DNA from: Patescibacteria group bacterium
Lineage (GTDB): Bacteria > Patescibacteriota > Minisyncoccia > Phycocordibacterales > UBA9973
Length of the DNA stretch: 64,000 bases
Direction: 5' to 3'
Assembly (NCBI GenBank): GCA_038063515.1
Contig: JBBTUY010000004.1
Coordinates: 35,717-99,716, forward strand
The position numbers and the translations under genes were made by a program. Within the stretch, counting starts at the first letter, position 1. The number at the start of each line of letters is the position of its first letter. Below are positions 9,092-54,330 of the stretch, one piece after another. The notes under the pieces are model-generated. The model did not search any database and was not told the DNA's origin. It saw only the letters and a program-made list of their open reading frames with translations.

Positions 9092-9778
9092 TTATTTACC
9101 CTTTTTCCATTCCTCGATCTTTGCCTGATGACCAGAAAGTAAGACTTTTGGGACTTTATAGTTCTTACCCTTATATTTTAGTATTTCAGGACGGGTATAT
9201 ACTTCACTACTTGAGATTCTCTCTTCTTCTAGGGATTCATATTTGCCGAGTACTCCTGAGATCTGACGAGAGATAGAATCGATCAAAACCATAGCGGGTA
9301 GCTCGCCACCTGTTAAAACATAATCCCCTATGGATATCTCTTCTGCTTTTAAGATCTTTTGCACTCGTGCATCTATGCCTTCGTATCTACCTGAAATCAA
9401 AATTATATCTGTATATTTTTGTGCAGATTTTTTCGCATAGCTAGTATCAAACTTTTTACCTGAAGGAGAAAAAATAATTACCTTAACATTGCGAAGGCTA
9501 GAAGAAGCTTTTCGAGTGGTCTGGGGATTTTTTCCGAGGACCCGAGAAAAGTTTCTACTAGCCGCAGCAAATGCTTTAAGAAAAAGCTCAGGACGAAGTA
9601 CCATCCCCGGTCCGCCTCCGTATGGCCTGCCATCTATCCTCTTTTTTGGCTCACAGTAGTCTATAGGATTATAGAATTTTATAGAAATCTTTTTATCCTT
9701 CACCGCCCGGCCCAAAATAGACTCTTGTAAATAAGAGTCAAACATCTCGGGAAATATAGTTATTATATGAAAACGCAT
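9092..9778 (-). CDS. trmD: tRNA (guanine37-N1)-methyltransferase TrmD
   Basis: MRFHIITIFPEMF... N-terminus, DGRPYGGGPGMVL SAM-binding knot motif, 228 aa. Confidence 0.9.
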   Translation of the reverse strand: MRFHIITIFPEMFDSYLQESILGRAVKDKKISIKFYNPIDYCEPKKRIDGRPYGGGPGMVLRPELFLKAFAAASRNFSRVLGKNPQTTRKASSSLRNVKVIIFSPSGKKFDTSYAKKSAQKYTDIILISGRYEGIDARVQKILKAEEISIGDYVLTGGELPAMVLIDSISRQISGVLGKYESLEEERISSSEVYTRPEILKYKGKNYKVPKVLLSGHQAKIEEWKKGK

Positions 9779-9802
9779 AGCGAAACTCGACTCACTTATT
9801 TA

Positions 9803-10045
9803 TTATTCCGTGTAGAAAAACTTTTTTAATTCTTGTTCAGGGAGATACTCTCTTGCTTGTTTATAAATCCCATGAGTCATACCACGATCAAGTTCTTTAT
9901 GGTTAGGGACAACTAAATGTTCCAAAACTCCTTCCACTATTCTACTTAAAATCATATGGCTGCCTTTTTGACGGTTAAGTATGAAACCTTGCTTTTCAAG
10001 AAAACCTATCAAATCACTCCCAGAAATCCTGCGAAGTTTAGGCAT
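9803..10045 (-). CDS. hicA: HicA-family mRNA interferase toxin (YcfA-like)
   Basis: 80 aa. LEKQGFILNRQKGSHMIL and VPNHKELDRGMTHGIYKQA match HicA hallmarks. Overlaps the upstream hicB by 8 nt. Confidence 0.7.
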   Translation of the reverse strand: MPKLRRISGSDLIGFLEKQGFILNRQKGSHMILSRIVEGVLEHLVVPNHKELDRGMTHGIYKQAREYLPEQELKKFFYTE

Positions 10046-10274
10046 ACTGTCTAAATGGTATCTCGTAATTCATCAATACTGAAGGATTTTTAGTAAGACT
10101 GTTAATAGAATCATCTTTCATGGAAACTTCCAAATAAAGCTCAGTGGCCTCAGAAATATTTTTTGTAATTTCATCTAAGGTTTTACCTTGAGTAAAAATA
10201 GGGAAATCTGTCGCCTTGGCAACAAAATACCCGTCTACACCTTGTGAAATAATAAATTGAATAATATTTTTCAT
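10038..10274 (-). CDS. hicB: HicB-family antitoxin (UPF0150)
   Basis: 78 aa; DGYFVAKATDFPIFTQGKTLDEITKNISEATELYLE resembles the HicB N-terminal domain. Translationally coupled to hicA. Confidence 0.65.
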   Translation of the reverse strand: MKNIIQFIISQGVDGYFVAKATDFPIFTQGKTLDEITKNISEATELYLEVSMKDDSINSLTKNPSVLMNYEIPFRQYA

Positions 10275-10318
10275 AAATATATTATATCATACTATTTACC
10301 TGATGTACAATTAAAATA

Positions 10319-10353
10319 GCCGGTAATCCTCGAGGATTACCGGCTATTTTTTG
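10319..10353. terminator. Bidirectional intrinsic terminator: perfect 15-bp stem agccggtaatcctcg/cgaggattaccggct flanked by A/T runs.
   Basis: Perfect palindrome followed by TTTTTT (plus strand) and a T-rich tract on the minus strand. Lies between the lipoprotein gene and hicB. Confidence 0.7.
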
Positions 10354-10394
10354 AGGGTTATAGGCCCCTCAGCCTGTGTGGGAGAAAAACAAAC

Positions 10395-10913
10395 CTAGAA
10401 GGTTTTGTTCTTCTCCCAAATGATTTCGGTCGAAACAAAGCCCGACCCGATAAATTCACCGATATATTGGATCTCGGTGACCTCGCCGTCAACCAACATG
10501 ACCCGAACTCTCTTAGGATCTAATGTTGGAATCAAAGAGTGGAGGCGCCGACCCTCCTTGATTTCAGGGGCGGTTTTCACCCCCCCTTTACTCGGCTCCG
10601 AATTATAAGCCGAATGGCGAGAGTAGACGCTACACGGCTTGCTCTCGCCAGGCAAATCAAGGCCGATTACGAAGACGAATTCGAAACACTCCCCGCCATC
10701 GCAGGCAGGGAATGCAATGAAATTTTCTTCGGGAATGCTCACGCCGATTTTGGTCGGCGTGACCTCAGTCACACCCGGCGTGGGAGTCGGTGTCGCCACA
10801 TACCTCGTTGCAGACGAGGTATGTGGCCCCTGAGGCGCGACTCCCTCGCACCCAAGGAAAACCAAAGTCGAAAAAACGAAAACGAACGCAAAAAAAATCT
10901 TTCGCATAACCAT
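10395..10913 (-). CDS. Secreted lipoprotein (signal peptide plus lipobox FLGC). Compositionally foreign, about 50% GC against a one-third-GC background.
   Basis: MVMRKIFFAFVFVFSTLVFLGCEG... lipobox. Pro/Thr-rich linker (TPTPTPGVTEVTPT). CG dinucleotides are dense only in this gene. Confidence 0.6.
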   Translation of the reverse strand: MVMRKIFFAFVFVFSTLVFLGCEGVAPQGPHTSSATRYVATPTPTPGVTEVTPTKIGVSIPEENFIAFPACDGGECFEFVFVIGLDLPGESKPCSVYSRHSAYNSEPSKGGVKTAPEIKEGRRLHSLIPTLDPKRVRVMLVDGEVTEIQYIGEFIGSGFVSTEIIWEKNKTF

Positions 10914-10994
10914 TCCTTTTCAAAATCTGCAGTTGTTAAATGCACACGCCGATACAAACTGGCGTATGCTTGACTATCTAAAATCAATAAAAGC

Positions 10995-11018
10995 ATATAT
11001 ATATATATATATATATAT
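10995..11018. repeat. (AT)12 dinucleotide microsatellite
   Basis: 24 nt of perfect atatat... between the KH-gene terminator and the lipoprotein gene start. Confidence 0.95.
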
Positions 11019-11033
11019 TGTCAATAGCAACAC

Positions 11034-11067
11034 AAAAAAAACGCTTACAAAATAAGCGTTTTTTTTG
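11034..11067. terminator. Bidirectional intrinsic terminator (A8-acgctta-caaaa-taagcgt-T8)
   Basis: 7-bp stem flanked by an A-run and a T-run. Lies 24 nt downstream of the KH-protein stop on the minus strand. Confidence 0.65.
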
Positions 11068-11090
11068 TGTTTGAGTATTTTTTATTTAAA

Positions 11091-11465
11091 TTATATCCCC
11101 TTTAAGTCTTCCATTGCCTGGTCTACAGTCTTAAATGAAGTTTGAGATGTAGTAGGGCCTCCACGCTGATATGCTGAGCCACCTATCTCCTCACTACTAC
11201 TAGCTGGTCTAGGTGCGCCACCTTCTGGCTCGTTAATCTTTAAGTTTACGCGAGCGTTGTTCTTCATACCTATGATGCGGAGGAGAGTACGAATAGCCTT
11301 TGCAGTATTACCCATTCTTCCTATGATCTTACCCATATCAGAAGGGTTGACTGTGAGAGTTATAAGTACACCCATCTCGTCCACTGTACGCTCTATCTTT
11401 ACGTCATTTGGATTGTCTACGAGAGCCTTCACTACGTATTCTAGAAACACCTGATCGTTTTCCAT
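11091..11465 (-). CDS. KH-domain RNA-binding protein (YlqC/UPF0109-type). This family sits between rpsP and rimM in other bacteria.
   Basis: GKIIGRMGNTAKAIRTLL KH GxxG-type core; 124 aa; directly downstream of rpsP. Confidence 0.7.
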   Translation of the reverse strand: MENDQVFLEYVVKALVDNPNDVKIERTVDEMGVLITLTVNPSDMGKIIGRMGNTAKAIRTLLRIIGMKNNARVNLKINEPEGGAPRPASSSEEIGGSAYQRGGPTTSQTSFKTVDQAMEDLKGI

Positions 11466-11540: not shown

Positions 11541-11849
11541 TTATTTGCCTGCTTTCAATTCCTTTCTCTTTTGTGTTGGCTTCTTTTTTGGGAGGACGTT
11601 TTTCTTCTTGCCTTCGACTATCTTGTCGTGCACGAGAAAATTGTGCATGGTGTCTGAACACTGAGCACCGTTTCCCATCCAGTATTTTATACGATCTGCC
11701 TGTAGAGTCTTCACTCCGAGTTTAGGATTGTAATTTCCTAGTATTTCTAAGAATCTTCCGCTTTTAGTACTGTTCTTTGAGTCAGTTAAAACTACCCGGA
11801 AGCTTGGGTCGTTCTTTCGTCCTATCCTTTGTAATCTGATTTTTAACAT
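11541..11849 (-). CDS. rpsP: 30S ribosomal protein S16 with a Lys-rich C-terminal tail
   Basis: MLKIRLQRIGRKNDPSFRVV...LGNYNPK is the canonical S16 N-terminus. Confidence 0.9.
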   Translation of the reverse strand: MLKIRLQRIGRKNDPSFRVVLTDSKNSTKSGRFLEILGNYNPKLGVKTLQADRIKYWMGNGAQCSDTMHNFLVHDKIVEGKKKNVLPKKKPTQKRKELKAGK

Positions 11850-41959: not shown

Positions 41960-42466
41960 TTAATATCTTGTTTCTAGCTGACGTTCTATCCTATTTGTAC
42001 TTGTGGAAGTACAGGAAGCATCCCCAATATTATAACCTTTAGAAACTATAGTTGTTACAGTTCTAATTCCTGAAGTAGCATCTTTTTGAACTGTTACTAC
42101 TGCACAATTTGTACTACTTGCAGCACCTAAACCAGTTAAAATAAAAGTATATACTCCGTTATTAGGATTACCAGCAATAGCTGCCCAAGTTGCAGTGATG
42201 TTGGAATTTCCGCCACAGTTTACGGTAGTTGATACACCAGGCAAAACAAAACGACTACTTACACCTTTATCATTCATAAGGGCACATTCTATGCCGGTAT
42301 CAGCGGCAAAGAAAGAATCGTTTGTATCCCGTGCCGAAGTAGTGAATTTAAGTTCTTTGAGAGCTATATTTGCAATGCCCAAAGTTATAGAAAGCAAAAT
42401 ACTTGATACTACTACTGCAAATAGTATAACGAAAGCCTTATTCTTTTGTATATTTTGTAATATCAT
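41960..42466 (-). CDS. PilX-like pilus-associated protein (hydrophobic N-terminal helix without a canonical G/FTLIE prepilin site)
   Basis: N-terminus KAFVILFAVVVSSILLSITLGIANIALKELK resembles PilX_N-type proteins. Ser/Thr-rich with several Cys. 9 nt upstream of ligA. Confidence 0.4.
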   Translation of the reverse strand: MILQNIQKNKAFVILFAVVVSSILLSITLGIANIALKELKFTTSARDTNDSFFAADTGIECALMNDKGVSSRFVLPGVSTTVNCGGNSNITATWAAIAGNPNNGVYTFILTGLGAASSTNCAVVTVQKDATSGIRTVTTIVSKGYNIGDASCTSTSTNRIERQLETRY

Positions 42467-42467
42467 A

Positions 42468-43076
42468 TTATTCTACCCAGTTATATAAACTTTCAGTAAA
42501 TGAAACACTTACATAAGCCCCATTTTGTAACCAATATACTGTTGAAGAAATTTTCATTTCATTAGCACTAGGAAAAGGAAAAGTTACACTTATTTTTCGA
42601 TTAAACCCAGCAGACACCCCAAGAGAAGAATTATTGTATTTACCAGTAGTAGAATTATAGTATATGGGTGCATTGCGACAATCATCAAATGAGCATGCTG
42701 TTATAGTCATAGCAGTTATGGGTTGAGTAGGATTATTATAATCTAAACTATCAGCGTTAAAATAGCATCCATTTGTAGTAGCACATAATGCATTCCATGA
42801 AGCTGTAGTAAGCTTGGTTTTAAATGCATTCCAACCAGCCTGTGAGCCACCAGCATCGTTTAATACATATGCATCACGCAAGTTTCTTATATACTCTACT
42901 CCCTCTTGTGCAAGATATGTTGCGACGACTTTCCTTTGTGCATAGTTACCATTATTAGTATCTTTAGCCGAAATAGATATGAGGCCGAGTATAGATGCAG
43001 TAAGGATGGAAATGGCAATAAGGGTCTCTATTAAAGTAAAGCCAAGATTTTTATTTGTTGTATTTTTAAATTTCAT
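42468..43076 (-). CDS. Type IV pilus minor pilin / pseudopilin
   Basis: Prepilin leader plus GFTLIETLIAISIL class III signal. Confidence 0.75.
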   Translation of the reverse strand: MKFKNTTNKNLGFTLIETLIAISILTASILGLISISAKDTNNGNYAQRKVVATYLAQEGVEYIRNLRDAYVLNDAGGSQAGWNAFKTKLTTASWNALCATTNGCYFNADSLDYNNPTQPITAMTITACSFDDCRNAPIYYNSTTGKYNNSSLGVSAGFNRKISVTFPFPSANEMKISSTVYWLQNGAYVSVSFTESLYNWVE

Positions 43077-43084
43077 ATAAATAT

Positions 43085-43753
43085 CTAGTTTACATCAATT
43101 AATCTCTGAGAAACTGAAGTTTGCAAATTAAAAGGTGTCTCTCCATTCTTTAAAAGAATTTTACCTACTAGTCTTATGGTAACAAAAGGCTGTTGTCTAT
43201 TACCAGAAGAATAAGACTCTGCGCCCAAAACAGCGAAGGATGAAACTGATTGAATCACAACTTCGTCCGGAGTTAATTTAACGAACCCTGCGGCAGCATA
43301 AGGACCAACAGTAGATTTCCATACAGCAAGTGGATTACCTGGAAGATTAGTATCAGGACCTATATAATAAACCCACTGATCGTTATCACTCGCATTATCA
43401 ATACCATCATTACTTGGAACACCTGTCTCAGGCTCAAAAGATATACCCCAACAATTTGAAGCGTTTGTGGAACTTTTTGGCACACTTACAAGATTAGAAG
43501 TAGTAGTAGGCATAGTGTCGCCTGAAAGAAAACAATGATAATTGTACCCTGTTCTCAAATTTCTAGACATATCTTCCATCATAAAGGTCATATTATCCAT
43601 AATAGATCGTACGTCCTGAGACTTCTGATGTAAAACATTCGCATTCAAAAATGCGCCCATAGCGGTAACAGCAATTATCAAAAAAAGTGACACAGCAATC
43701 ATAGTTTCTATGATTGTATATCCAGTATTATTTTGTAAAAAATTATTTTTCAT
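43085..43753 (-). CDS. Type IV pilus minor pilin / pseudopilin
   Basis: GYTIIETMIAVSLFLII prepilin cleavage/methylation motif. Confidence 0.75.
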   Translation of the reverse strand: MKNNFLQNNTGYTIIETMIAVSLFLIIAVTAMGAFLNANVLHQKSQDVRSIMDNMTFMMEDMSRNLRTGYNYHCFLSGDTMPTTTSNLVSVPKSSTNASNCWGISFEPETGVPSNDGIDNASDNDQWVYYIGPDTNLPGNPLAVWKSTVGPYAAAGFVKLTPDEVVIQSVSSFAVLGAESYSSGNRQQPFVTIRLVGKILLKNGETPFNLQTSVSQRLIDVN

Positions 43754-43763
43754 TTTGTCTAAC

Positions 43764-44402
43764 CTAATTCATCTGAACTCTACCCGAAGGGTATATTTTT
43801 ATAAGTGCACTGCCACCTTTTGGTGAAATTACTGTAATCTGTACATATGATACGGCTCCTGCCAATGCGGTACCATTTGAGGTAAAATTCACCCCCGAAT
43901 TAACTCGTGAAAATGTTGCAGTTAAATTACTAGGAGTAGCAGAGACAGTACCAAAAACTTGAATTGCAGATATATAACTTCCTTTAGGAATAGAAACCTT
44001 ACCTAAACATTCTGTGGTTGTACAATGTGGCAAACCATCATAAATACCGTCACTGTCTAAATCGGTAAAATAAATAAACTTTTTATTAAAAAATATGCTG
44101 TCATTTGAGTCATTACTATTAGTTGAATCAAAATAAATACCGTAAGAAGGCTTCCACGTAGAGGGTACAGTAGTCGTAGGTAATTTACCCGACAATGCTG
44201 CTTTCTGAGCCTCCACTATCTTAAGTGCTATTTCATTACCTAAGTTTTTTGTATCAACCTTAGACTGGAAAAATCCGTAATTAAAAGTAATAACAGTGGA
44301 CATAAGAGAAAATATACCGAGAACAACGATAAGCTCCACATACGTCATACCTTTATTGTATTGTTTATGTTTTACTATTTTATTTTTATTTAAATGAAAC
44401 AT
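43764..44402 (-). CDS. Type IV pilus minor pilin / pseudopilin (GspH/FimT-like)
   Basis: GMTYVELIVVLGIF prepilin motif after a long basic leader. Confidence 0.7.
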   Translation of the reverse strand: MFHLNKNKIVKHKQYNKGMTYVELIVVLGIFSLMSTVITFNYGFFQSKVDTKNLGNEIALKIVEAQKAALSGKLPTTTVPSTWKPSYGIYFDSTNSNDSNDSIFFNKKFIYFTDLDSDGIYDGLPHCTTTECLGKVSIPKGSYISAIQVFGTVSATPSNLTATFSRVNSGVNFTSNGTALAGAVSYVQITVISPKGGSALIKIYPSGRVQMN

Positions 44403-44414
44403 TATTTAAAAGTT

Positions 44415-45251
44415 TTAAATTTGAAAAAAGCTGAAAATATATAAGTCTAGTATGAAAACAAGAAATGATCCAAAAACCAAATACGGGGCAAAAGGTATCT
44501 CACTTCTCATTTTATACCTCTTAGATATTATAACAAGCACAATACCTATGATTGCCCCAGACCAAAATGCAATAGCAGTAGCAGAAAGTATCCTTGAGAA
44601 GCCGAGTAGCCACCCGAGCCCTACTGCAAGCTTTGCGTCACCTAGTCCCATCCATGTACCACGTGAGACGAGCCAAAGTAGTGCGAAAGGTAGTGACACA
44701 GCTACGCCAGCCATGAAATCAAAAAGTGTGGGTATGTGAAATACAAAATATCCATGAGCGTTAAAGAAAAACATACCAATAAAGGCAAAGGCTGCCAACA
44801 TTAAAGAAAGCTGGTCGGGAATTATTTTATGCTTTATATCGTAGGTAGAGATTACTAAAAGAATTGAAAACATAAAAGCATAATACGTAAACACAAAAAT
44901 AAAATTAAAAACATCTATAAATAAGATGTCCTGAAATTTAATAAAAAGTGATACGAAAATAAGACCACTGGTGAGCTCTACGAGTGGATACTGTATAGAT
45001 ATCTTTGTCTTACAAATTTTACATCTCCCCATAAGCGCAAAGAAGCTAAATACTGGAATGAGCTCATACCATGAGAGCTTGTTCTGGCAGGTCATGCAGG
45101 CACTCCTGCCTCCAAGGGACTTCTTTGTATTTATCCTATATATGACAACATTTAAAAAACTCCCAATTATAACACCGAGACAGAAAAAGAAAATCATATA
45201 AGGCAAAATCATATATATAATTGTACCATAAATATAAAACTGAATAAACAA
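44415..45251 (-). CDS. pilD: Prepilin peptidase / N-methyltransferase PilD (peptidase A24)
   Basis: GSFLNVVIYR, zinc tetracysteine CMTCQNKLSWYELIPV...CKICKTKI, polytopic C-terminal catalytic domain. Confidence 0.85.
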   Translation of the reverse strand: MFIQFYIYGTIIYMILPYMIFFFCLGVIIGSFLNVVIYRINTKKSLGGRSACMTCQNKLSWYELIPVFSFFALMGRCKICKTKISIQYPLVELTSGLIFVSLFIKFQDILFIDVFNFIFVFTYYAFMFSILLVISTYDIKHKIIPDQLSLMLAAFAFIGMFFFNAHGYFVFHIPTLFDFMAGVAVSLPFALLWLVSRGTWMGLGDAKLAVGLGWLLGFSRILSATAIAFWSGAIIGIVLVIISKRYKMRSEIPFAPYLVFGSFLVFILDLYIFSFFQI

Positions 45252-45284
45252 AAAAAAGCCACCCTTGAGGTGGCTTTTTTTTGT
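45251..45284. terminator. Bidirectional intrinsic terminator A8-gccacc-cttg-aggtggc-T8, downstream of pilin gene 45297..45833
   Basis: Perfect 7-bp GC stem flanked by 8-nt A and T runs. Confidence 0.75.
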
Positions 45285-45296
45285 AAGAATTAAATT

Positions 45297-45833
45297 TTAA
45301 TCGCAACGATAACCACCTACTGCAGTAGCATTAGAAAATGCTGCAGTAAAGTTAACTAAAGTTGTTGGTGATGTACCAGTAAATGTTCTCTTTGTACCTT
45401 TGTTATCATTACAAAATGCCCCAGTAGAAGTTGATGCGGCAAAGAACCAAGTACCTGAAGTATTTGGATCAGCACCATTCCATCCGTAGTAAACATAAGT
45501 AGGTCCTGGTAAAGTAGAGGCTAGTGCGTACAAACTATTTAAAGAACTAGTTGTAGCGTTAAATAATGTTCCACTCGCAGCAGTACCAGCAGGCAATGCA
45601 CCAGTTATACCAGAACTGACCTGATATGCTGTTGGGGTTACATATGCAGTACCAGTCGTACCTGAAAACAAAAATCCTTGAGAAGTCATCTGGCTCAACT
45701 GGGAGACTATTTTTGCATCTCGGCTCTTACCTCTTGCAGAACCAAGGTAAGCAAGAACAACTGTTGCCAAGATAGCGATAATAGCTATGACTATCATAAG
45801 CTCGATCAAAGTGAAACCTTTTTTAGAATTCAT
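45297..45833 (-). CDS. pilA: Type IV major pilin (PilA-like), paralog 2
   Basis: MNSKKGFTLIELMIVIAIIAILA canonical class III signal; Thr/Ser/Gly-rich globular part; C-terminal Cys pair (FCNDN...YRCD). Confidence 0.8.
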   Translation of the reverse strand: MNSKKGFTLIELMIVIAIIAILATVVLAYLGSARGKSRDAKIVSQLSQMTSQGFLFSGTTGTAYVTPTAYQVSSGITGALPAGTAASGTLFNATTSSLNSLYALASTLPGPTYVYYGWNGADPNTSGTWFFAASTSTGAFCNDNKGTKRTFTGTSPTTLVNFTAAFSNATAVGGYRCD

Positions 45834-45878
45834 ATTAAATATAATTTAAATTAATAATACAAGCAGTACAATATATAG

Positions 45879-45908
45879 ATTATAACACATAACACCATAT
45901 AAAAACAA
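45879..45908 (-). promoter_or_regulatory. Promoter candidate for pilin paralog 2: -35 TTGTTT (45908..45903), 18-nt spacer with TG, -10 TATAAT (45884..45879).
   Basis: Read on the minus strand. The -35 overlaps the U-tract of the upstream terminator. Confidence 0.35.
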
Positions 45909-45945
45909 AAATACCCTGTGTTTTCCACAAGGTATTTTTGTAATA
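45901..45945 (-). terminator. Intrinsic terminator for pilin paralog 1 (imperfect 10-bp stem ataccttgtg/cacagggtat plus TTTTTGTTTTT)
   Basis: Stem-loop 45911..45935 followed on the minus strand by a long T-tract. Confidence 0.6.
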
Positions 45946-45976
45946 TTTTTTTAAATATTAATGAATCTAAAATAAT

Positions 45977-46456
45977 CTAGCTTGCAGCAGAGTTGTTGCA
46001 GATAACATTAGTACTAGAAGGACCTGCAGTTATGTCAGTCATACCTAAAGTACTTACACCTGCATACCCCGTACTATCTACACAGAAAAATGTACCGGTA
46101 GGTAGAGTAATCATAGCACCCCAAGCAGAAGGAGCTACACCAACAGCAGTATTTTGTCCACAACCAACTGTGTTTGGAGAAGCTGAAGCATTAGCAGCAT
46201 TCTTAAGAGCAAGTAAACTACCAGTAGTAGTAACAGCAGCGTTACAAAGATCTACGGCATATGTACCAGCAGCACCCACTCCAAGCTCAGCTTGTGCACG
46301 CATTGAAGACATACTTGCTTGAACAGAAGCGTCTTTACCTTTGTTTCTTGCAGTGTTAAGAGAAGCCAAAACAACTGAAGCTAAGATACCTATGATAGCA
46401 ACAACAACCAAGAGCTCGATCAAAGTGAAACCTTTTTTGAAATTCATTTTTTTCAT
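45977..46456 (-). CDS. pilA: Type IV major pilin (PilA-like), paralog 1
   Basis: MKKMNFKKGFTLIELLVVVAIIGILASVVLA class III signal. Start chosen at MKKMNF rather than the longer track ORF. C-terminal Cys pair (FFCVD...VICNN). Confidence 0.8.
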   Translation of the reverse strand: MKKMNFKKGFTLIELLVVVAIIGILASVVLASLNTARNKGKDASVQASMSSMRAQAELGVGAAGTYAVDLCNAAVTTTGSLLALKNAANASASPNTVGCGQNTAVGVAPSAWGAMITLPTGTFFCVDSTGYAGVSTLGMTDITAGPSSTNVICNNSAAS

Positions 46457-46505
46457 AATATTTTTAAAACTAATAATAATTGATAATTCGACTCCCACCC
46501 AAACG

Positions 46506-46572
46506 ATTATAGCCAGGCAGGTATATTTTTATATAAAGTAATTATATCATATGTAAAAACAAAAATACGCAA
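46506..46572 (-). promoter_or_regulatory. Promoter region for pilin paralog 1: -35 TTGCGT (46572..46567), 17-nt spacer, extended -10 TGATATAAT (46549..46541). A second TGGCTATAAT lies at 46515..46506.
   Basis: Read on the minus strand; an extended -10 compensates for a weaker -35. Confidence 0.35.
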
Positions 46573-46613
46573 ACAAGTTATCCACAGCAATACTGTCTAA
46601 TCAGTATATAATC

Positions 46614-47822
46614 TTAACTGATACCTCCAGCTAGGTTATATATAGGTATAAGTATAGAAGTAAGTAATATACCGACACCGAGACCAAGTACCACTATCAT
46701 CACAGGCTCTATGAGCCCGACGAGAGTGTCTACTGCGTCGTCCACCTCACGTGCATAAAAAGTAGCCAGTGTCTTTAAGATAGACCCGAGTGAGCCTGTC
46801 TCCTCTCCCACCTTTATCATTTGGACCATGATTCCTGGTATTTCTACTTTATATTTTTCAAATGCAGCAGATAATGAAGAGCCGGATTTAACCTTTTCCA
46901 TAATTTCTTCTAATATCTTTTTATACACACGACTTCCCACAACACTCGAAGTAACGTCAATAGACCTCAGTATTGGCACACCTGAGGAAAGAGTTGTGTT
47001 TAAATTGTCTGCGATTCTAGAAAGGTAGAGTGTTCGGTATAAGTTACCTACAACTGGCAGAGATAGTCGTGTATGGTCGAGATATGTCTTACCTGTCTCA
47101 GTAGAAGCAAGTCTCCAAACCCAAATACCTAAAAATACTAAGAAAATAATACCGAGGAAGCCATAATTAACAAATAAATCAGAAATTCCTATGATCACCT
47201 TTGTATATATTGGTACTTCCTGACCTGAATCTAGAATAATCTCTGAAAGTCTTGGGATAACAATAACGAACATAAGGATCATGACAACAAAGAAAGTAAT
47301 GATGACGAATACAGGGTAAATAAGAGCATTTCTGGTTTTAGAAGACAGAGAGTACTGACGATCTAAGTATTCAGACAAATGTAAAAATACTTCAGTTAGC
47401 TTTCCTGTCTCTTCCCCCACCTTTACCATGTTTACATAAAAGTCTGAAAAAACTTCCGGATGACGTGCAAGCGCACCTGATATAGACACACCAGCCTGAA
47501 GATCGTCGCTGATTTGAGTAAGCTTAACTCCTAAAAGCTTATTTTCAGTATTTACTGCGAGCATGTTAAAACATTTAAGAGCGGAGACTTGGGCATCAAA
47601 CAAAGTAGAGATTTGTCTAGACAATATGACCACATCTTTGTTTGAAACTTTGTTGAAAATAGAAAGATTGAGGAATTTCCTTGGTTCATCTGTATTTTTT
47701 ATAGAAATAATTACAAGACCACGCTTTTGTAGTCCGCTTATCGCCATGTCTCTACTCGGAGCGTCTATGTCTCCTTCTTTGCTTACACCCTTGTCATCTA
47801 TTGCTTTATATTTGAATAGCAT
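46614..47822 (-). CDS. pilC: Type IV pilus platform protein PilC (GspF family)
   Basis: Two T2SS-F repeats, 3 TM segments, 402 aa. Confidence 0.85.
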   Translation of the reverse strand: MLFKYKAIDDKGVSKEGDIDAPSRDMAISGLQKRGLVIISIKNTDEPRKFLNLSIFNKVSNKDVVILSRQISTLFDAQVSALKCFNMLAVNTENKLLGVKLTQISDDLQAGVSISGALARHPEVFSDFYVNMVKVGEETGKLTEVFLHLSEYLDRQYSLSSKTRNALIYPVFVIITFFVVMILMFVIVIPRLSEIILDSGQEVPIYTKVIIGISDLFVNYGFLGIIFLVFLGIWVWRLASTETGKTYLDHTRLSLPVVGNLYRTLYLSRIADNLNTTLSSGVPILRSIDVTSSVVGSRVYKKILEEIMEKVKSGSSLSAAFEKYKVEIPGIMVQMIKVGEETGSLGSILKTLATFYAREVDDAVDTLVGLIEPVMIVVLGLGVGILLTSILIPIYNLAGGIS

Positions 47823-47829
47823 ATATGTA

Positions 47830-48888
47830 TTAAATCATACGATCTAGGCCTTTTGGATTTAGAGAATACTGTCTCGCATTCTCTATAGAAATCTCCCCTG
47901 CACGAACAAGCTCTACTAGTGAGTGGTTTAAGTCCACCATCCCAGATTCAGAACCTGTTTCTATTACTACGTCTATCTCATGTGTTCTTTTTTCACGAAT
48001 AAGGTTTGACACAGCATTGTTATTTAAAAGAAGTTCGTATGCAGGTATGAGTCCCCCGTTAATGCGAGGTACAAGTCTCTGAGAAAATATCCCGAGTAAT
48101 CCAGAAGCAAGCTGAGAACGAATCTGGTCTTGCTGGTTGCCTGGGAATGAATCTATGATTCTGTCTATTGTCTGTGAAGCATTGTTTGTGTGTAAAGTAG
48201 AAAGTACGAGGTGGCCTGTCTCAGCGGCCGTTACAGCTGTAGCTATGGTCTCTGGCGTACGCATCTCACCTATCAAGATGACATTTACATCTTCACGAAA
48301 GACGGACTTCAGTGCAACATGGAAATCTTTGGTATCTATACCTACTTCGCGTTGATTAATTATTGATTTATTTGGAACATATACATGCTCAATAGGGTCC
48401 TCAATGGTGATGATATTGCGTGCTTGTTCGTTGTTTATTAGGTCTACCATTGCGGAAAGCGTAGTAGACTTACCTTGACCTACAGGTCCAACCACTAAGA
48501 AAAATCCCTGCTTTTTCCTTGCAATATCCGCCAAACTGTCAGGCAAATGTAAATCAGAAAATGTTTTAACCTTTGGCACTAAACGCAAGACAATATTTAT
48601 CAAACCTTTTTGAAAAAAAGCGTTACCACGAAGTCGCGCTTCTCCACGGAAATCATAAGAGAAATCCATTTCTTGATTTTCAAGAAAAAGATCGACCTTA
48701 CCAGGGGGTAATATTGCTTTTAATATTCCCATTATATCTTCTTCGGTGAGAGGTGCGTGTTTAACAAGAAATATTAACTCTCCGGAAACACGAATAGCCG
48801 GCACACGAGTCGTACCTATGTGCAAGTCAGATCCATCTTCACGGATGACATTTAAAACGAGATCTTCAAATAATTTTTTATAGTCCAT
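47830..48888 (-). CDS. pilT: Twitching-motility / pilus retraction ATPase PilT
   Basis: 352 aa; Walker A GPVGQGKSTTL, Asp box, His box AAETGHLVLSTLHTNNA; no GspE N-domain. Confidence 0.85.
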   Translation of the reverse strand: MDYKKLFEDLVLNVIREDGSDLHIGTTRVPAIRVSGELIFLVKHAPLTEEDIMGILKAILPPGKVDLFLENQEMDFSYDFRGEARLRGNAFFQKGLINIVLRLVPKVKTFSDLHLPDSLADIARKKQGFFLVVGPVGQGKSTTLSAMVDLINNEQARNIITIEDPIEHVYVPNKSIINQREVGIDTKDFHVALKSVFREDVNVILIGEMRTPETIATAVTAAETGHLVLSTLHTNNASQTIDRIIDSFPGNQQDQIRSQLASGLLGIFSQRLVPRINGGLIPAYELLLNNNAVSNLIREKRTHEIDVVIETGSESGMVDLNHSLVELVRAGEISIENARQYSLNPKGLDRMI

Positions 48889-48963
48889 TCGTTACTAAAA
48901 TTTATATTTATAATATATATTATTGTACCATGTAATAAAAGTTAGGAGAATAGCTCTATATTT

Positions 48964-49368
48964 TTATGTATTTGAAATAGCTATTTTCTTTGAAGTTATC
49001 TCCCCAACTTGTTCTAAAACTTCTTTTGGAGTACAGTTTGCTTTTATTATATATCCAGCGACGCCGAGAGCATTGCCTTGGTCGATGTCTGCCTGCTCGC
49101 TCTTGTTAGATAAAACTATTTTTATAGAATTTGGTGATAAGTTTTCAGCATTTATGCGTCCGAGCATTTCGAAACCATCAACTTCTGGCATAATAATATC
49201 CGTTAACAAAACATCTGGCTGTAAGCCACCCTTTATCTTACTCAAGGCATCTTCGGCTCCTGAAGACGTATGCACTTCATAATTGCTCTGACTAAACTTT
49301 AAAGCATACATATCTAAAAGAAAATTATCATCATCAACTATTAAAATTTTCTTCTTTTCTCCTTCCAT
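48964..49368 (-). CDS. Stand-alone response-regulator receiver domain (CheY/PilH-like)
   Basis: KILIVDDD, phospho-acceptor region VLLTDIIMPEVDGFEM, conserved Lys in GYIIK. 134 aa, no output domain. Confidence 0.75.
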   Translation of the reverse strand: MEGEKKKILIVDDDNFLLDMYALKFSQSNYEVHTSSGAEDALSKIKGGLQPDVLLTDIIMPEVDGFEMLGRINAENLSPNSIKIVLSNKSEQADIDQGNALGVAGYIIKANCTPKEVLEQVGEITSKKIAISNT

Positions 49369-49532
49369 AATATTTAAATTAAAATAATAATCTCAAAAAA
49401 AATACTTTTTATGGGAAACCTAGGGTTTATGATCTTTGTACACCTAGATTTTATTATAACACACAATGTTTTTTACTTAGACATGCTGTGTATAACTACA
49501 TAAAACTAGAGTAAATCGACAATTTAGACAAA

Positions 49533-51278
49533 TTACTCAGTAGCATCACTGAAATTATACACTTCCTTAAATGGAATGATACCGTTTACTGCTTTCAGCA
49601 TGGCATCTTCCCTCATCATAAGCATGCCCTTCTGGCGGACAGCTTTGTAAATTTCAGCCTCTATTGGATTTTTCAAAATTATACTTTGAACTTCTTTGTC
49701 TACTTTAAACATTTCAAATACCGCAACACGACCCCTCGTACCTGAAGGACATTCCGAAGACGGCACAGTGTCGTACATTTTACCATCCTCCCCTATTACT
49801 TTTTTGAACTGATCGGGTAAGTCTTTTAATTCTTCGTCTATTTGATTCTTAATCACAGGATCTATGGGTACTAATTTTCTTGATGATTCACATGTCATGA
49901 GAGCTAAACGCTGAGCCATAGATAAAATGAGGGTAGGAGCAATGAGGTAAGGGTCGACACCCATGTCTATAAGACGAGGAATGGCACCTATGGCATTGTT
50001 GGTATGCAAAGTAGAAAGAACTAAGTGCCCTGTAAGGGCCGCTTGAATGGCAAGCTGAGCTGTCTCCTTGTCACGTATTTCTCCTACCATTATTATATCT
50101 GGGTCCTGACGCATAATAGAGCGAAGACCATTTGCAAAAGTATACCCAATCTCAGGCATGACCTGTGACTGGCTTACATTTGGCATGTGGTACTCCACAG
50201 GGTCTTCGAGTGAAATAATATTATTTTTTTCTTTGTCTAATTCGTTCATCATAGAGTACAAAGTCGTAGACTTTCCAGAGCCAGTAGGTCCAGTGATGAG
50301 AATGATGCCGTAGGGTCGTGTTAATGCTTCTTTAACCATTTTCAAATTTTCAGGAGAGAGGTGTAGCTGATCGAGAGGCTTTACCCCCTTTTCAGAGTCA
50401 AGTATACGAATAACAACTTTTTCACCATAATACGCAGGCATAGTGGAGACACGAAAATCTATCTTGTGACCATCAATATTTGCACTAAAAGATCCGTCTT
50501 GAGGTTTTCTTTTTTCATCGAGTCTTAATTTTGCTAAAATTTTAATACGAGCTACGACTCCACTGTATACATTGAGTGGAAGGACTATGGAAGTATACAA
50601 AGCTCCGTCTACACGAAAACGAACTTTCACTTTTTCTCCAGTATGCTCTATGTGTATGTCAGAGGCATTACCTTCTATGGCGTTACGAAGCACAACTGCT
50701 ACTATTTTTATCACGGGAGCATCCTCCACTATCTTTGCCTCTTCATTTGGTTTAGTATTTTTTAATGTATCACTCAAATTTTCGTCTACTAAAGATTGCT
50801 CTTTAGCTTCGTCTTTGTTTAATATATCTAGGGCTTCTTCTACTTGAGTCGTTAAGCCTCTGTATATACCCATAGTGCGTTCATAGTCTCCTTTAGATAT
50901 GAGAAAAACCTTAAAAGGTACTCCTGCCTTGTTGGAAATAAACTGGAGTGCATCCATTGCTTGTATGTTTTCTGGATCAGTGACACCTACGTGAAGAACT
51001 CCATCTTTGAGGTCTATCGGGACAAAATTATAATGTGTAGCTGAATCCTCAGAAATATATTTAAGTGGATCAAATGTCAGCTCTTTTTCAGTAACTTTTA
51101 CAGCTGGTATACCTAAATACTCCCCCCTTAGTGAGAGAAGTTCTTGTTCTCCTATACCAGACTCTAGTAAAGCTTCATTAATATCTCCACTGTATTTCTC
51201 AACAGCACGAGCTTTGATCTCGCTTATCTGGTCTTCTTTTATTAGATTTTTTTCAACTAATGATTGTAGAAAACTCAT
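49533..51278 (-). CDS. pilB: Type IV pilus assembly (extension) ATPase PilB (GspE family)
   Basis: 581 aa; N-terminal GSPII_E_N domain; Walker A GPTGSGKSTTLYSM; tetracysteine-region equivalent; His box. Confidence 0.9.
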   Translation of the reverse strand: MSFLQSLVEKNLIKEDQISEIKARAVEKYSGDINEALLESGIGEQELLSLRGEYLGIPAVKVTEKELTFDPLKYISEDSATHYNFVPIDLKDGVLHVGVTDPENIQAMDALQFISNKAGVPFKVFLISKGDYERTMGIYRGLTTQVEEALDILNKDEAKEQSLVDENLSDTLKNTKPNEEAKIVEDAPVIKIVAVVLRNAIEGNASDIHIEHTGEKVKVRFRVDGALYTSIVLPLNVYSGVVARIKILAKLRLDEKRKPQDGSFSANIDGHKIDFRVSTMPAYYGEKVVIRILDSEKGVKPLDQLHLSPENLKMVKEALTRPYGIILITGPTGSGKSTTLYSMMNELDKEKNNIISLEDPVEYHMPNVSQSQVMPEIGYTFANGLRSIMRQDPDIIMVGEIRDKETAQLAIQAALTGHLVLSTLHTNNAIGAIPRLIDMGVDPYLIAPTLILSMAQRLALMTCESSRKLVPIDPVIKNQIDEELKDLPDQFKKVIGEDGKMYDTVPSSECPSGTRGRVAVFEMFKVDKEVQSIILKNPIEAEIYKAVRQKGMLMMREDAMLKAVNGIIPFKEVYNFSDATE

Positions 51279-51373
51279 CCCGTTAGAAATTTATATTTTA
51301 ATTATTAATACATAATATATTATACCTCATTTTAATCTTTTCGTTATTTCTAACGGAATTCATACAGAGGTAA

Positions 51374-51787
51374 TTAGTTTGTGGGATTGGTATTGTTTTT
51401 AGGGAGAGACGAGTTTGGTTGTGTGTTTGTAGAAATATTTACAGATGTTGAAACTTTATCAGACCCAATAGGAGCAAAAGGGTTAGGTCTACCTTCTGTG
51501 CCGTCAGGATTAAGTATTATAGTAGAGTCACGTAGTGATGTGAAAGCTGGATTAGAAAATATAGTTGCATCTAATTTTATCCCTTCCACAGACAAGAGGA
51601 GCGTGAGGAATTCTTGAGTGATAGTAGAGTCAGCAACATTAGTATCCGTAGGAACAACGCTACCAGACGGAGACGTGGTTACAAGATTACCTGATTCCTC
51701 CGGACTTTTCTTAACAAAGAAAATAAATATGAGGAGAAAAATTCCTGCAATTGCTGTAAATATTAAAATGTTTTTTAATTTCTTCAT
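51374..51787 (-). CDS. Hypothetical membrane-anchored Ser/Thr/Pro-rich protein in the PilP-like position of the pilMNO cluster
   Basis: N-terminal TM; low-complexity TNTQPNSSLPKNNTNPTN tail. Confidence 0.35.
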   Translation of the reverse strand: MKKLKNILIFTAIAGIFLLIFIFFVKKSPEESGNLVTTSPSGSVVPTDTNVADSTITQEFLTLLLSVEGIKLDATIFSNPAFTSLRDSTIILNPDGTEGRPNPFAPIGSDKVSTSVNISTNTQPNSSLPKNNTNPTN

Positions 51788-51790
51788 ATT

Positions 51791-52387
51791 TTAATTCTTT
51801 AACCAATAAGTCTTGATTTTAAAATCATGTTTGTATGTTGGAGTACCGGACTTTAAATCTATCTCCGAAGAAAAAGTTATTGATGATACATCTACTATGC
51901 GTAGATTGCTTTCAAGGTCTCGTGTAAAGTTTAGGAAATTTTCATATGTGCCAACAATAGAAAAGCTCAAATCCCACACACCGTATTCAGTAGAAACACC
52001 TGGTCCTGTAGCTCCTCCTGGGACCACTGATCCAGATCCTGGGGCTGTTGTTGTAGGGGCTGTTTTGATAGCATCATATTTCACATCTCTAAGAACCATG
52101 CCGTATGGTGCTGCAATCTTTTCTATTTCAAGAATGAGTCTGATGTTGTCGATACTGTCTGGAAGAAGCTTTTGTAGTTTTGCGAGGTCTTCAGTATTTA
52201 AGGCATTGTACTCAGCGGTTAATTTATCTCTTTGGTTTTCGAGTGCTTTAGAATTCTTTAAGGCCTCGTCATAAGACGCGACCTGACCACGAAGTTCTAC
52301 TACGTTAGTATAGAGAGGATTAGTAAATGCAAAAAATCCTGCAACTGCTATTCCTAATAAAATGATTGGTAAGATAAATCTAAGCAT
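51791..52387 (-). CDS. pilO: Type IV pilus inner-membrane alignment protein PilO
   Basis: N-terminal TM plus coiled coil and LLPDSIDNIRLILEIEKIA block. 198 aa. Confidence 0.65.
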   Translation of the reverse strand: MLRFILPIILLGIAVAGFFAFTNPLYTNVVELRGQVASYDEALKNSKALENQRDKLTAEYNALNTEDLAKLQKLLPDSIDNIRLILEIEKIAAPYGMVLRDVKYDAIKTAPTTTAPGSGSVVPGGATGPGVSTEYGVWDLSFSIVGTYENFLNFTRDLESNLRIVDVSSITFSSEIDLKSGTPTYKHDFKIKTYWLKN

Positions 52388-52389
52388 AA

Positions 52390-53031: not shown

Positions 53032-53356
53032 TACTTTATATTGTATCTTTTATATTATATTACAAAAATATCTTTTAATGAAGCAAAGTGTGTATAACTT
53101 TATGCAAAGACAGAAAATAAATACAAGCTGGGAGTTTGGTAGATGAGAAAATAAAAAAGGCAGATAAGGGTATACACGTGTAACACCCTCATCTGCCCGA
53201 GCATTCAAATACAAGTATGCGGAATATTTTACTTATATTTGATATTTTTTTGCCAACAGGAAACTTAAAGCACTTTTGTCTAAAAAGTTGTAGTGTGAGA
53301 TTGAATAGTTGTGGAACATTTAGCGGACTTTTAGTGGTCCATAGAAAGGGGATAAA

Positions 53357-53513: not shown

Positions 53514-53543
53514 GTCATCAAAGCCACAAAAGTAAACTACCCC

Positions 53544-54323: not shown

Positions 54324-54330
54324 AAATATT

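What the first reader, a model, noticed from the sequence alone, without database searches (positions are those of the whole stretch)
9803..11090. Foreign GC-rich lipoprotein cassette plus hicBA toxin–antitoxin pair inserted into the conserved rpsP–KH–trmD operon
In most bacteria rpsP, the KH-protein gene, rimM, trmD and rplS form one operon. Here KH is followed by a bidirectional terminator, an (AT)12 microsatellite, a lipoprotein gene whose GC content (about 50%, CG-rich codons) far exceeds the roughly one-third genomic average, a second perfect terminator, and then an overlapping hicB/hicA pair immediately before trmD. rimM and rplS are absent from the locus. The composition shows recent horizontal acquisition from a higher-GC donor. 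The doubly terminated cassette structure suggests integration of a mobile insert into an essential ribosomal operon, stabilised by the TA module.
Basis: seen in the sequence. Interest (0 to 1): 0.6.

Follow-up and report, generated by a model that had tools for sequence, protein, structure and literature searches.

The report
GC-rich lipoprotein cassette plus later hicBA
In a tiny-genome groundwater bacterium (Patescibacteria), a self-contained lipoprotein gene with unusually high GC sits between two conserved housekeeping genes, but it is an old resident shared with related species rather than a recent import, and the toxin–antitoxin pair next to it arrived separately and later.

Summary
On the minus strand: rpsP, KH (KhpA-like), hairpin, (AT)12, a 170-aa lipoprotein gene (52% GC against 36.9% for the window; GC3 0.60 against 0.30), a perfect palindromic hairpin, overlapping hicB/hicA, then trmD.

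- **Cassette age.** The same cassette (hairpin, promoter, lipoprotein, hairpin) lies in the same KH|trmD slot in at least two other species, plus a third short contig. It is equally GC-rich there and has no hicBA.
- **Composition.** Four-fold sites between orthologues are as randomised as in rpoB/rpoC, yet stay about 65% GC. The composition is therefore a maintained state, not a sign of recent transfer.
- **hicBA.** This is a separate, lineage-specific insertion of about 0.5 kb. Its closest relatives sit just downstream of trmD in other genomes. Here it landed upstream, brought its own extended −10 promoter, and probably now drives trmD.
- **Operon.** rimM and rplS are absent from this locus in all 78 related species examined. 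In 22 of them the KH|trmD junction holds unrelated cargo, so it is an insertion hotspot.

The lipoprotein belongs to a small uncharacterised family: no Pfam match, and a confident AlphaFold model with no PDB relative. Why its GC stays high is unexplained.

The parts
11541..11849 (-). rpsP (ribosomal protein S16), first gene of the conserved block
   Evidence: PF00886, 60.4 bits
11091..11465 (-). KhpA-like KH-domain protein with a variable C-terminal tail
   Evidence: PF13083, 74.7 bits. 87% identical to the L003 orthologue and at most 80% to the other relatives.
11029..11071 (.). Bidirectional terminator-like hairpin after KH (19-bp perfect arms, A8/T8 tracts)
   Evidence: -24.2 kcal/mol, z = -8.6; I3. 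Same position in L003, L085 and L086 with compensatory changes.
11019..11024 (-). TTGACA -35 hexamer of the lipoprotein promoter
   Evidence: Read directly from the sequence. The homologous promoters are TTGACA-17-TATAAT in L085 and TTGCAA-17-TATAAT in L086.
10995..11018 (.). (AT)12 microsatellite filling the spacer and -10 region of that promoter (TTGACA-17 nt-TATATA)
   Evidence: TRF. (AT)7 in L003, absent in L085 and L086. Identical length in two other assemblies of this species.
10942..10969 (-). Hairpin in the 5' UTR, followed by a CUGCAGA/UUGCAGA motif and the RBS
   Evidence: The three orthologous UTRs also contain a GC-rich hairpin, and UUGCAGA (UGCGG in L003) lies before the RBS. Weak evidence; function unknown.
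10395..10907 (-). 170-aa lipoprotein (signal peptide, lipobox FLGC, Thr/Pro linker, conserved domain with the motifs IGVS, CDGGEC and W-E). GC 52%, GC3 0.60.
   Evidence: AlphaFold pLDDT 87.6. No Pfam, NCBIfam or PDB relative.
10313..10350 (.). Bidirectional terminator-like hairpin after the lipoprotein gene (perfect palindrome)
   Evidence: -26.7 kcal/mol, z = -9.9; I2. Conserved with compensatory changes in L003, L085 and L086. The Logan contigs L001 and L002 break at its centre.
9798..10302 (-). Inserted hicBA block. It comprises a relic of a trmD 3' end (CAGGTAAATAG, 10292-10302), an extended -10 (TG-A-TATAAT, 10281-10289), hicB and hicA.
   Evidence: About 82% nucleotide identity to the blocks in L089, L093 and L114, starting in the last codons of their trmD. 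Absent from L003.
10038..10274 (-). hicB-like antitoxin, 78 aa, with no DNA-binding domain
   Evidence: PF15919, 17.6 bits (below the cut-off of 27). PDB 2yzt E = 0.012 and HicB3 E = 0.34. Always paired with hicA in relatives.
9803..10045 (-). hicA toxin, 80 aa, with a G-S-H motif at residues 28-30
   Evidence: PF07927, 49.9 bits against a cut-off of 27. 173 homologues.
9779..9802 (-). 24-nt spacer between hicA and trmD. It has no terminator and keeps only a remnant (TTTCGCTATG) of the ancestral trmD promoter TTCGTGNTATAAY.
9092..9778 (-). trmD, tRNA (m1G37) methyltransferase
   Evidence: PF01746, 126.7 bits

Best explanation
Two independent insertions of different ages lie between KH and trmD in a Nomurabacteria/Paceibacterota-type genome. 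In this clade the normal order is rpsP-KH-trmD-...-rpoB, without rimM or rplS.

**(1) The lipoprotein cassette.** It is an autonomous transcription unit: terminator, sigma-70-type promoter, 5' UTR, 170-aa membrane-anchored surface lipoprotein, terminator.
- It entered the KH|trmD junction, a recurrent insertion hotspot, in the ancestor of a small subclade.
- It has since co-diverged with its flanks, or at most been exchanged among close relatives.
- Its high GC is a maintained equilibrium that several family members share. It is not a residue of recent transfer.
- In this species and in L003, an (AT)n tract has replaced the promoter spacer and -10 region. This may tune expression or switch it by slippage.

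**(2) The hicBA block.** This 0.5-kb module belongs to a lineage that usually rides on the 3' end of trmD in related genomes.
- It was inserted later, only in this lineage, between the cassette terminator and trmD.
- It brought its own extended -10 promoter. The old trmD promoter has decayed, so trmD is now most probably transcribed by read-through from hicBA.

**Shown:** the anatomy, synteny, composition, saturation of synonymous sites, and block homology.
**Inferred:** co-transcription of trmD with hicBA, the promoter effect of (AT)n, surface exposure of the lipoprotein, and the force that keeps GC high.
For: **Clade arrangement and hotspot**
- 78 related species show rpsP-KH-trmD with a KH-trmD gap of 3-133 bp in 54. 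Twenty-two carry 250-2400 bp of unrelated cargo: PDDEXK_3, NYN, RHS, TSCPD and others.

**The cassette is shared and old**
- Orthologous lipoprotein genes lie in the same slot in L003 (51% aa identity) and L086 (34%). L085 (44%) is a short contig with the same hairpins. Promoter position is conserved and hicBA is absent.
- All are GC-rich: GC3 is 0.60, 0.64, 0.57 and 0.53, against about 0.30-0.36 in the flanks.
- A paralogue between trmD and rpoB in L115 also has high GC3, 0.50 against 0.28-0.37.
- At four-fold sites between the window and L003, the strong/weak (G/C versus A/T) state memory is 0.11 in the flanks (n = 981) and 0.12 in the lipoprotein (n = 43). GC4 is 0.18/0.33 in the flanks and 0.65/0.67 in the lipoprotein.
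- The codon shift does not follow that of rpsP/KH (r = 0.13, p = 0.35).
- rpoB places the window and L004 as an exclusive nearest pair.

**hicBA is separate**
- It is absent from L003, L085 and L086 and has native GC.
- The block 9798-10302 is about 82% identical to blocks lying directly after trmD in L089/L093 and L114, and in the P0008 contig. L114 keeps a duplicated trmD 3' end after hicA.
- A 68% relative sits in a conjugative-type element.

**The gene is a real protein gene**
- The family has 33 cluster representatives.
- Cys20 is nearly invariant in the family alignment, and the two motif cysteines are replaced together in six members.
- The AlphaFold model has pLDDT 87.6.
Against: - Only three or four cassette-bearing genomes are known, and the radiation is star-like: rpoB identity is 88.1% for the nearest pair against at most 87.4% for others.
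- trmD of the window is closer to the cassette-free L005 and L006 (90%) than to L003 (82%). Lateral exchange of the cassette, or replacement of trmD, cannot be excluded.
- The lipoprotein four-fold sample is small (n = 43; CI -0.17 to 0.40).
- No force that keeps GC high was identified.
- No transcript data exist. The -10 inside (AT)12 is imperfect (TATATA, lacking the final T).
- No length variation of (AT)n was seen among three assemblies of this species.
- HicB scores below Pfam's threshold.
Confidence: 0.62

Rival explanations
1. A single foreign mobile insert (lipoprotein cassette plus hicBA) was recently acquired from a higher-GC donor, integrated into the ribosomal operon, and is held there by the toxin-antitoxin module.
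For: GC and GC3 are extreme outliers. The cassette is absent from the slot in all 78 species representatives measured. hicBA relatives occur on a conjugative-type element.
Against: - The cassette is present without hicBA in L003, L086 and L085, in the same slot.
- Synonymous sites are saturated between orthologues.
- hicBA has native composition and separate homology boundaries.
- No higher-GC donor homologue appears among 5.8 billion or 1.84 billion proteins.
- No mobility genes or flanking repeats were found.
Confidence: 0.04
2. Recurrent import. The lipoprotein cassette circulates among Patescibacteria from a GC-richer reservoir. It has been inserted, or replaced by homologous recombination through KH and trmD, independently in each carrier, so the high GC reflects repeated re-introduction.
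For: - The KH|trmD junction is a hotspot that holds diverse cargo, often GC-rich: L027, L048, L059, L067 and L077 are 0.12-0.23 above their loci.
- The KH and trmD flanks of the window give discordant nearest neighbours.
- Family members occur at other sites with their own promoter and terminator.
Against: - No GC-rich reservoir was found. Distant family members in L087 and L088 have nearly native GC.
- The AT-rich regulatory flanks, with the hairpins in the same positions, are shared by all four carriers.
- L003 and L086 are sisters by KH plus trmD and both carry the cassette.
- The lipoprotein's synonymous divergence matches that of its flanks.
Confidence: 0.22
3. The GC-rich patch is not a protein gene. 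It is a structured RNA, an antisense gene, or an assembly chimera.
For: In AT-rich genomes, GC-rich patches are often RNA genes. A 144-aa antisense ORF exists at 10539-10973.
Against: - There is no Rfam match even at E = 10 other than terminator-like noise.
- The sense ORF is conserved, with a lipobox, in 32 aligned family members, including the near-native-GC members encoded in L088 and L117.
- The AlphaFold model is confident.
- Identical sequence was recovered in two independent assemblies.
- The antisense similarity only mirrors the conserved sense segment.
Confidence: 0.02

Closest known systems
HicAB type II toxin-antitoxin systems (Pfam PF07927 HicA_toxin; PF15919 HicB_lk_antitox)
   Same: An 80-aa HicA with the G-S-H motif, and a small upstream partner gene that overlaps it. 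The pair is mobile and patchily distributed, and relatives occur in a conjugative-type element.
   Different: - HicB is only 78 aa, lacks a recognisable RHH/HTH DNA-binding domain and scores below threshold.
- The order is antitoxin then toxin.
- This sublineage is repeatedly linked to trmD: downstream in three other lineages, upstream here.
- Here it appears to supply the promoter for an essential gene.
Canonical rpsP-(KH/khpA)-rimM-trmD-rplS operon (own knowledge of E. coli and Bacillus gene order)
   Same: rpsP, KH and trmD are in the same order and on the same strand.
   Different: rimM and rplS are missing from the locus in the whole clade. trmD is followed by rpoB/rpoC. In the carriers, the operon is split by two terminators and an inserted transcription unit.
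Integration hotspots and genomic islets between conserved core genes
   Same: A fixed junction between two core genes holds different cargo in different species. The cargo is often atypical in composition.
   Different: There is no integrase, tRNA target or att repeats. Inserts are tiny, one or two genes. One cargo, the lipoprotein cassette, has been retained long enough for synonymous sites to saturate.
Simple-sequence-repeat promoters of phase-variable surface proteins, such as the (TA)n tract between -35 and -10 of Haemophilus influenzae hifA/hifB (own knowledge)
   Same: A dinucleotide AT repeat lies directly after a consensus -35 box of a surface-protein gene. Repeat number differs between species: 12, 7 and 0.
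   Different: No within-population length variation was seen. The repeat includes the -10 region rather than only the spacer, so it may simply be a degenerate promoter.
GC-biased gene conversion as an explanation for locally raised GC3 in bacteria (Lassalle et al. 2015, PMC4450053)
   Same: GC3 is raised in a fast-evolving gene located at a recombination and insertion hotspot.
   Different: The excess, about +0.3 in GC3 and confined to one 0.5-kb gene, appears (from my own recollection; the paper was not opened) far larger and sharper than effects described for gBGC. Not tested here.

Membership tests
HicAB toxin-antitoxin | Toxin matches the HicA family model above its curated threshold | tested here: met
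   PF07927, 49.9 bits against a cut-off of 27
HicAB toxin-antitoxin | Conserved catalytic histidine (G-x-H motif) in HicA | tested here: met
   KGSHMIL at residues 27-33, read from the translation. The role of this histidine is from own knowledge.
HicAB toxin-antitoxin | Partner protein with the HicB fold | tested here: inconclusive
   PF15919, 17.6 bits, below the cut-off of 27. PDB TTHA1756 E = 0.012 and HicB3 E = 0.34. No NCBIfam hit.
HicAB toxin-antitoxin | Adjacent co-oriented gene pair conserved as a unit | tested here: met
   8-nt overlap. The pair is conserved in L089, L090-L094 and L114.
HicAB toxin-antitoxin | C-terminal DNA-binding domain on HicB for autoregulation | tested here: not met
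   78 aa with no RHH/HTH match. Short HicB forms do exist, so this does not exclude membership.
HicAB toxin-antitoxin | Toxicity of HicA and its neutralisation by HicB | not testable with these tools
   Needs expression experiments.
Bacterial lipoprotein (Lgt/Lsp substrate) | N-terminal signal peptide ending in a lipobox with an invariant Cys | tested here: met
   MRK followed by a hydrophobic stretch and F-L-G-C. Cys20 is conserved in at least 90% of 32 family members. This is a pattern reading only; no predictor was run.
Bacterial lipoprotein (Lgt/Lsp substrate) | Lgt and LspA encoded in the genome | not tested
   Only 64 kb is available, and neither was looked for.
Recently acquired genomic island | Atypical base composition and codon usage | tested here: met
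Recently acquired genomic island | Absent from the same site in close relatives | tested here: not met
   Present in L003, L086 and L085 at the same site. Absent from all 78 species representatives measured.
Recently acquired genomic island | Low synonymous divergence from the donor or between carriers | tested here: not met
   Four-fold sites are near saturation. No donor was found.
Recently acquired genomic island | Mobility genes or flanking direct repeats | tested here: not met
   No convincing flanking repeats. No integrase or transposase lies between rpsP and rpoB.
rpsP-KH-rimM-trmD-rplS operon | All five genes are contiguous | tested here: not met
   rimM and rplS are not detected in the window or in 84 related loci. 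Gene order is given.
Phase-variable SSR promoter | Repeat tract located within the promoter elements | tested here: met
   TTGACA is followed directly by (AT)12. The homologous promoters are canonical.
Phase-variable SSR promoter | Repeat number varies within a population | tested here: inconclusive
   Three consensus assemblies all carry (AT)12. Reads were not available.

The most novel reading that the evidence does not exclude
A small, uncharacterised family of Patescibacteria surface lipoproteins, with a confident fold model that has no PDB relative, is carried on self-contained promoter-terminator cassettes. Their GC3 is held at roughly twice the genomic level for longer than it takes synonymous sites to saturate. 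That would mean a single gene has its own compositional equilibrium, through selection on GC-rich or rare codons or through very strong local biased conversion at an insertion hotspot. Separately, a hicBA lineage has specialised in riding on the essential gene trmD and here has taken over its transcription.
Probability: 0.3. Interest if true: 0.65.

Novelty: new variant of a known kind. Interest (0 to 1): 0.42.

Why it matters
- **Method.** A sharp GC/GC3 anomaly is routinely read as recent horizontal transfer. Here the anomaly is conserved across orthologues whose synonymous sites have been randomised, so that inference fails. If the maintained GC-rich equilibrium is real, it offers a compact natural case, one 0.5-kb gene in several lineages, for separating selection on codon or GC content from biased gene conversion in bacteria.
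- **Patescibacteria biology.** The work flags an abundant-looking, strongly promoted surface lipoprotein family of unknown fold and function. These organisms' lifestyle depends on cell-surface contacts.
- **Genome architecture.** It identifies the KH|trmD junction as a cargo hotspot. It also identifies a toxin-antitoxin lineage linked to trmD that may now control transcription of an essential tRNA methyltransferase.

Tried and rejected
- **Structured RNA in the GC-rich patch.** Rfam at gathering thresholds and at E = 10 gave only sub-threshold terminator-like hits, and there is no tRNA.
- **Antisense ORF 10539-10973.** Rejected as a by-product of high GC and of sense-strand conservation.
- **Translational selection as the cause of high GC3.** The codon shift does not correlate with that of rpsP/KH (r = 0.13) and it enriches codons those genes avoid.
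- **Donor search.** The word-index search found only the gene itself and one 49% homologue. Scans of metagenome and viral contigs with the lipoprotein found nothing. The profile search found 33 relatives, all anonymous small lipoproteins. The third homology search added no names.
- **L001 and L002 contigs ending at 10321.** First considered as a sign of hicBA presence/absence polymorphism. The better explanation is that the assembler broke at the centre of the perfect 32-bp palindrome.
- **Promoter upstream of hicB.** First read as the captured ancestral trmD promoter. Revised after alignment with L089 and L114 showed that it travels with the hicBA block.
- **Direct repeat D1** (10285-10310 against an internal trmD segment, 81% over 26 nt). 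Judged to be chance.
- **Target-site duplications or att-like repeats around either insert.** None found.
- **PADLOC.** No defence-system match.
Full report
**1.

On the minus strand the window carries the following features:
- rpsP at 11541-11849 and a KhpA-type KH gene at 11091-11465.
- A 19-bp perfect hairpin with flanking A and T runs at 11029-11071.
- (AT)12 at 10995-11018.
- An ORF at 10395-10913. The start more likely in use is 10907, which matches the 170-aa database protein P0001.
- A perfect palindromic hairpin at 10313-10350.
- hicB at 10038-10274, overlapping hicA at 9803-10045 by 8 nt.
- After 24 nt, trmD at 9092-9778, then rpoB and rpoC.

Both hairpins fold far better than shuffled controls (z = -8.6 and -9.9). 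(AT)12 is the only dinucleotide microsatellite in the window.

The ORF is 51.8% GC against 36.9% for the window. It is the only GC peak in 64 kb (z = 4.6). Its GC3 is 0.60, against 0.30 ± 0.06 (maximum 0.45) for 55 other ORFs. It is enriched in NCG, GGG, GGC and GAG codons.

tblastn with L19 and RimM queries finds nothing in the window or in 84 related loci.

**2. Where the window comes from, and the normal state of the locus**

The lipoprotein is identical to a hypothetical protein from a "Patescibacteria group bacterium" MAG. A scan of one genome per species with trmD returned 80 Nomurabacteria/Paceibacterota-type loci.
- In the 78 where both genes were found, the order is rpsP-KH-trmD, usually followed by rpoB.
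- The KH-trmD gap is 3-133 bp in 54 of them, so there is no room for rimM. rplS does not follow trmD.
- The missing rimM and rplS are therefore a feature of the clade and not a consequence of the insert.
- Twenty-two species carry 250-2400 bp at this junction, with unrelated cargo: PD-(D/E)XK_3, NYN, an RHS-repeat protein, a TSCPD fragment, small Cys-rich proteins, a small two-gene pair and a large surface protein. Several of these are also GC-rich relative to their locus.

The KH|trmD junction is a recurrent insertion hotspot.

**3. The lipoprotein cassette is shared and old**

The only close homologue, P0002 (51% identity), lies in the same slot in another MAG (L003/L004). The layout there is KH, hairpin, TTGACA-(AT)7, 5' UTR, lipoprotein, hairpin, then directly trmD, with no hicBA.

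A profile search of 1.84 billion representatives found 33 family members.
- One of them, P0127 (34% identity), again sits between KH and trmD in a third genome (L086).
- Another, P0123 (44%), lies on a short contig with the same flanking hairpins (L085).
- The hairpins keep their positions while changing sequence in a compensatory way. L085 and L086 carry canonical promoters, TTGACA-17-TATAAT and TTGCAA-17-TATAAT, at the place where the window and L003 have TTGACA followed by (AT)n.

All four orthologues are GC-rich relative to their genomes: GC3 is 0.60, 0.64, 0.57 and 0.53, against about 0.30-0.36. A paralogue between trmD and rpoB in another relative also has GC3 of 0.50 against 0.28-0.37. 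Two distant members elsewhere are only slightly enriched.

**4. Recent transfer is not supported**

Four-fold degenerate sites at conserved residues were compared between the window and L003.

| Sites | n | GC4, window | GC4, L003 | Residual memory of strong/weak (G/C vs A/T) state |
|---|---|---|---|---|
| Flanking genes (rpoB, rpoC, trmD, KH) | 981 | 0.18 | 0.33 | 0.11 (CI 0.05-0.18) |
| Lipoprotein gene | 43 | 0.65 | 0.67 | 0.12 (CI -0.17 to 0.40) |

In a two-state model, each lineage would retain only about one third of any neutral GC excess present at the split. The present excess of about 0.47 would then require an impossible ancestral value. This step is inference.

The lipoprotein's sites are as scrambled as those of the flanks, but around a different equilibrium. 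Base identities tell the same story.

The codon shift is not the one seen in rpsP/KH (r = 0.13, p = 0.35), so ordinary translational selection does not explain it.

What keeps the GC high is unexplained. The candidates are selection for GC-rich or rare codons, strong biased conversion at a recombination hotspot (the hypothesis of PMC4450053), or repeated re-import from an unseen reservoir.

**5. How the carriers are related**

- rpoB, the longest marker, makes the window and L004 an exclusive nearest pair, but only by 88.1% against at most 87.4%.
- KH agrees: 87% to L003 and 80% to L086, against at most 79% for the rest.
- trmD of the window is closer to the cassette-free L005 and L006 (90%) than to L003 (82%).

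The radiation is star-like. Recombination in this region is plausible, so lateral exchange of the cassette among relatives remains a live rival.

**6. hicBA is a separate, later insertion**

- It is missing from the three other cassette loci, and its GC (0.31-0.36) is native.
- HicA passes Pfam's threshold and has the G-S-H motif. HicB is short (78 aa), scores below threshold, and lacks a DNA-binding domain.
- The closest relatives (HicA 73-81% identical; HicB 85-91% where DNA was available) lie immediately downstream of trmD in other Nomurabacteria-like contigs. L089/L093 have KH-trmD-hicB-hicA. The P0008 contig has the same order. L114 has a duplicated remnant of the trmD 3' end after hicA.
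- The block of about 82% nucleotide identity spans window 9798-10302. Its left edge reads CAGGTAAATAG, which aligns with the final GGT-AAA-TAA codons of trmD in those relatives. An extended -10 (TG-A-TATAAT) follows, then 6 nt, then the hicB ATG.
- The module therefore arrived with its own promoter and a scrap of a trmD 3' end, but landed upstream of trmD.
- The promoter motif that precedes trmD in L003, L085 and L086 (TTCGTGNTATAAY) is reduced to TTTCGCTATG in the window. No terminator-like hairpin lies in the 24 nt between hicA and trmD. Read-through transcription of trmD from the hicB promoter is therefore the most likely arrangement, but this is inferred.
- A more distant relative (68%) sits in a conjugative-type element with PrgI, TraC, TraG, Fic and SLT genes.

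**7. What the lipoprotein is**

The family consists of proteins of about 160-185 aa. Each has a signal peptide, a lipobox with a nearly invariant Cys, a low-complexity linker, and a domain of about 120 aa carrying IGVS, P-x-CDGGEC and a C-terminal L/I-W motif. The two motif cysteines are replaced together in six members, which suggests a disulfide pair.

The most likely role is an abundant membrane-anchored surface protein of a monoderm (single-membrane, no outer membrane) episymbiont. The consensus promoters and strong terminators fit high, insulated expression. Its molecular function is unknown.

**8. The (AT)n tract**

In the window the tract begins directly after TTGACA. Twelve repeats are just enough to give TTGACA-17-TATATA. 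L003 has seven repeats and no good -10 at proper spacing. This fits a slippage-tunable promoter, as in known SSR promoters. However, three assemblies of this species all show (AT)12, and the -10 is imperfect, so this remains a hypothesis.

**9. Verdict**

It is not recent, it is not one composite element, and it is not held in place by the TA module.

The ordinary parts are a HicAB pair and an insertion hotspot. The unusual parts are three: GC-rich composition persisting long-term in a single gene, an uncharacterised lipoprotein fold, and a hicBA lineage linked to trmD.

Noticed in passing
window 61420-61765 (+): A group I intron (Rfam RF00028, 63.9 bits, 61481-61695) appears to interrupt the anticodon loop of a tRNA-like gene. 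The 5' half is GCGGGATAGAG...CAAGGCT, and the 3' half is CATAACCTTG...GGCCGTTCGATTCGGCC TCCCGCA. That is most simply a tRNA with a CAU anticodon. ARAGORN did not call it.
   Followed up: partly
window 58863-58952 (+) and 58690-58781 (-): Two divergently oriented long-arm tRNA-Ser genes. ARAGORN calls one with the anticodon ACT, which is unusual for bacteria (A34). The other has GCT.
   Followed up: no
L005-L084, KH|trmD junction (for example L048 4657-6001, L027 4978-6001, L059, L067, L077): Several unrelated cargo genes at the same hotspot in other species are also much more GC-rich than their loci. L048 has a TSCPD-domain ORF at 65% GC against 42%. L027 has an RHS-repeat protein at 53% against 41%. 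High GC may be a property of the hotspot and not of one gene.
   Followed up: partly
L114 525-600: After hicA there is a second, slightly diverged copy of the trmD 3' end, encoding VPKVLLSGNHKDIEAWKNKAQK*. This is a duplication signature showing that hicBA entered at the 3' end of trmD together with a replacement gene end.
   Followed up: partly
window 10795-10827 (inside the lipoprotein CDS): A perfect 14-bp inverted repeat with a 5-nt loop lies in the non-conserved linker-coding part of the gene. Function unknown; it may be chance in GC-rich sequence.
   Followed up: no
window 10908-10994 (-) and the orthologous 5' UTRs in L003, L085 and L086: Each lipoprotein 5' UTR contains a GC-rich hairpin, and the UUGCAGA-like motif (UGCGG in L003) lies before the RBS. 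No Rfam family matches. This may be a small cis-regulatory element.
   Followed up: partly
window 41960-55458 (-): A type IV pilus-like cluster: prepilin peptidase, several N-methyl pilins, T2SSF, T2SSE, a response regulator, PilM and PilO-like. It is interrupted by a weak IS200-like Y1 transposase ORF at 53565-54293.
   Followed up: no
L090 and L091 941-8243: A hicBA pair 67-68% identical to the window's sits inside a conjugative or T4SS-like gene set (Fic, PrgI, TraC-like, TraG P-loop, SLT) on a 406-kb Patescibacteria-like scaffold.
   Followed up: no
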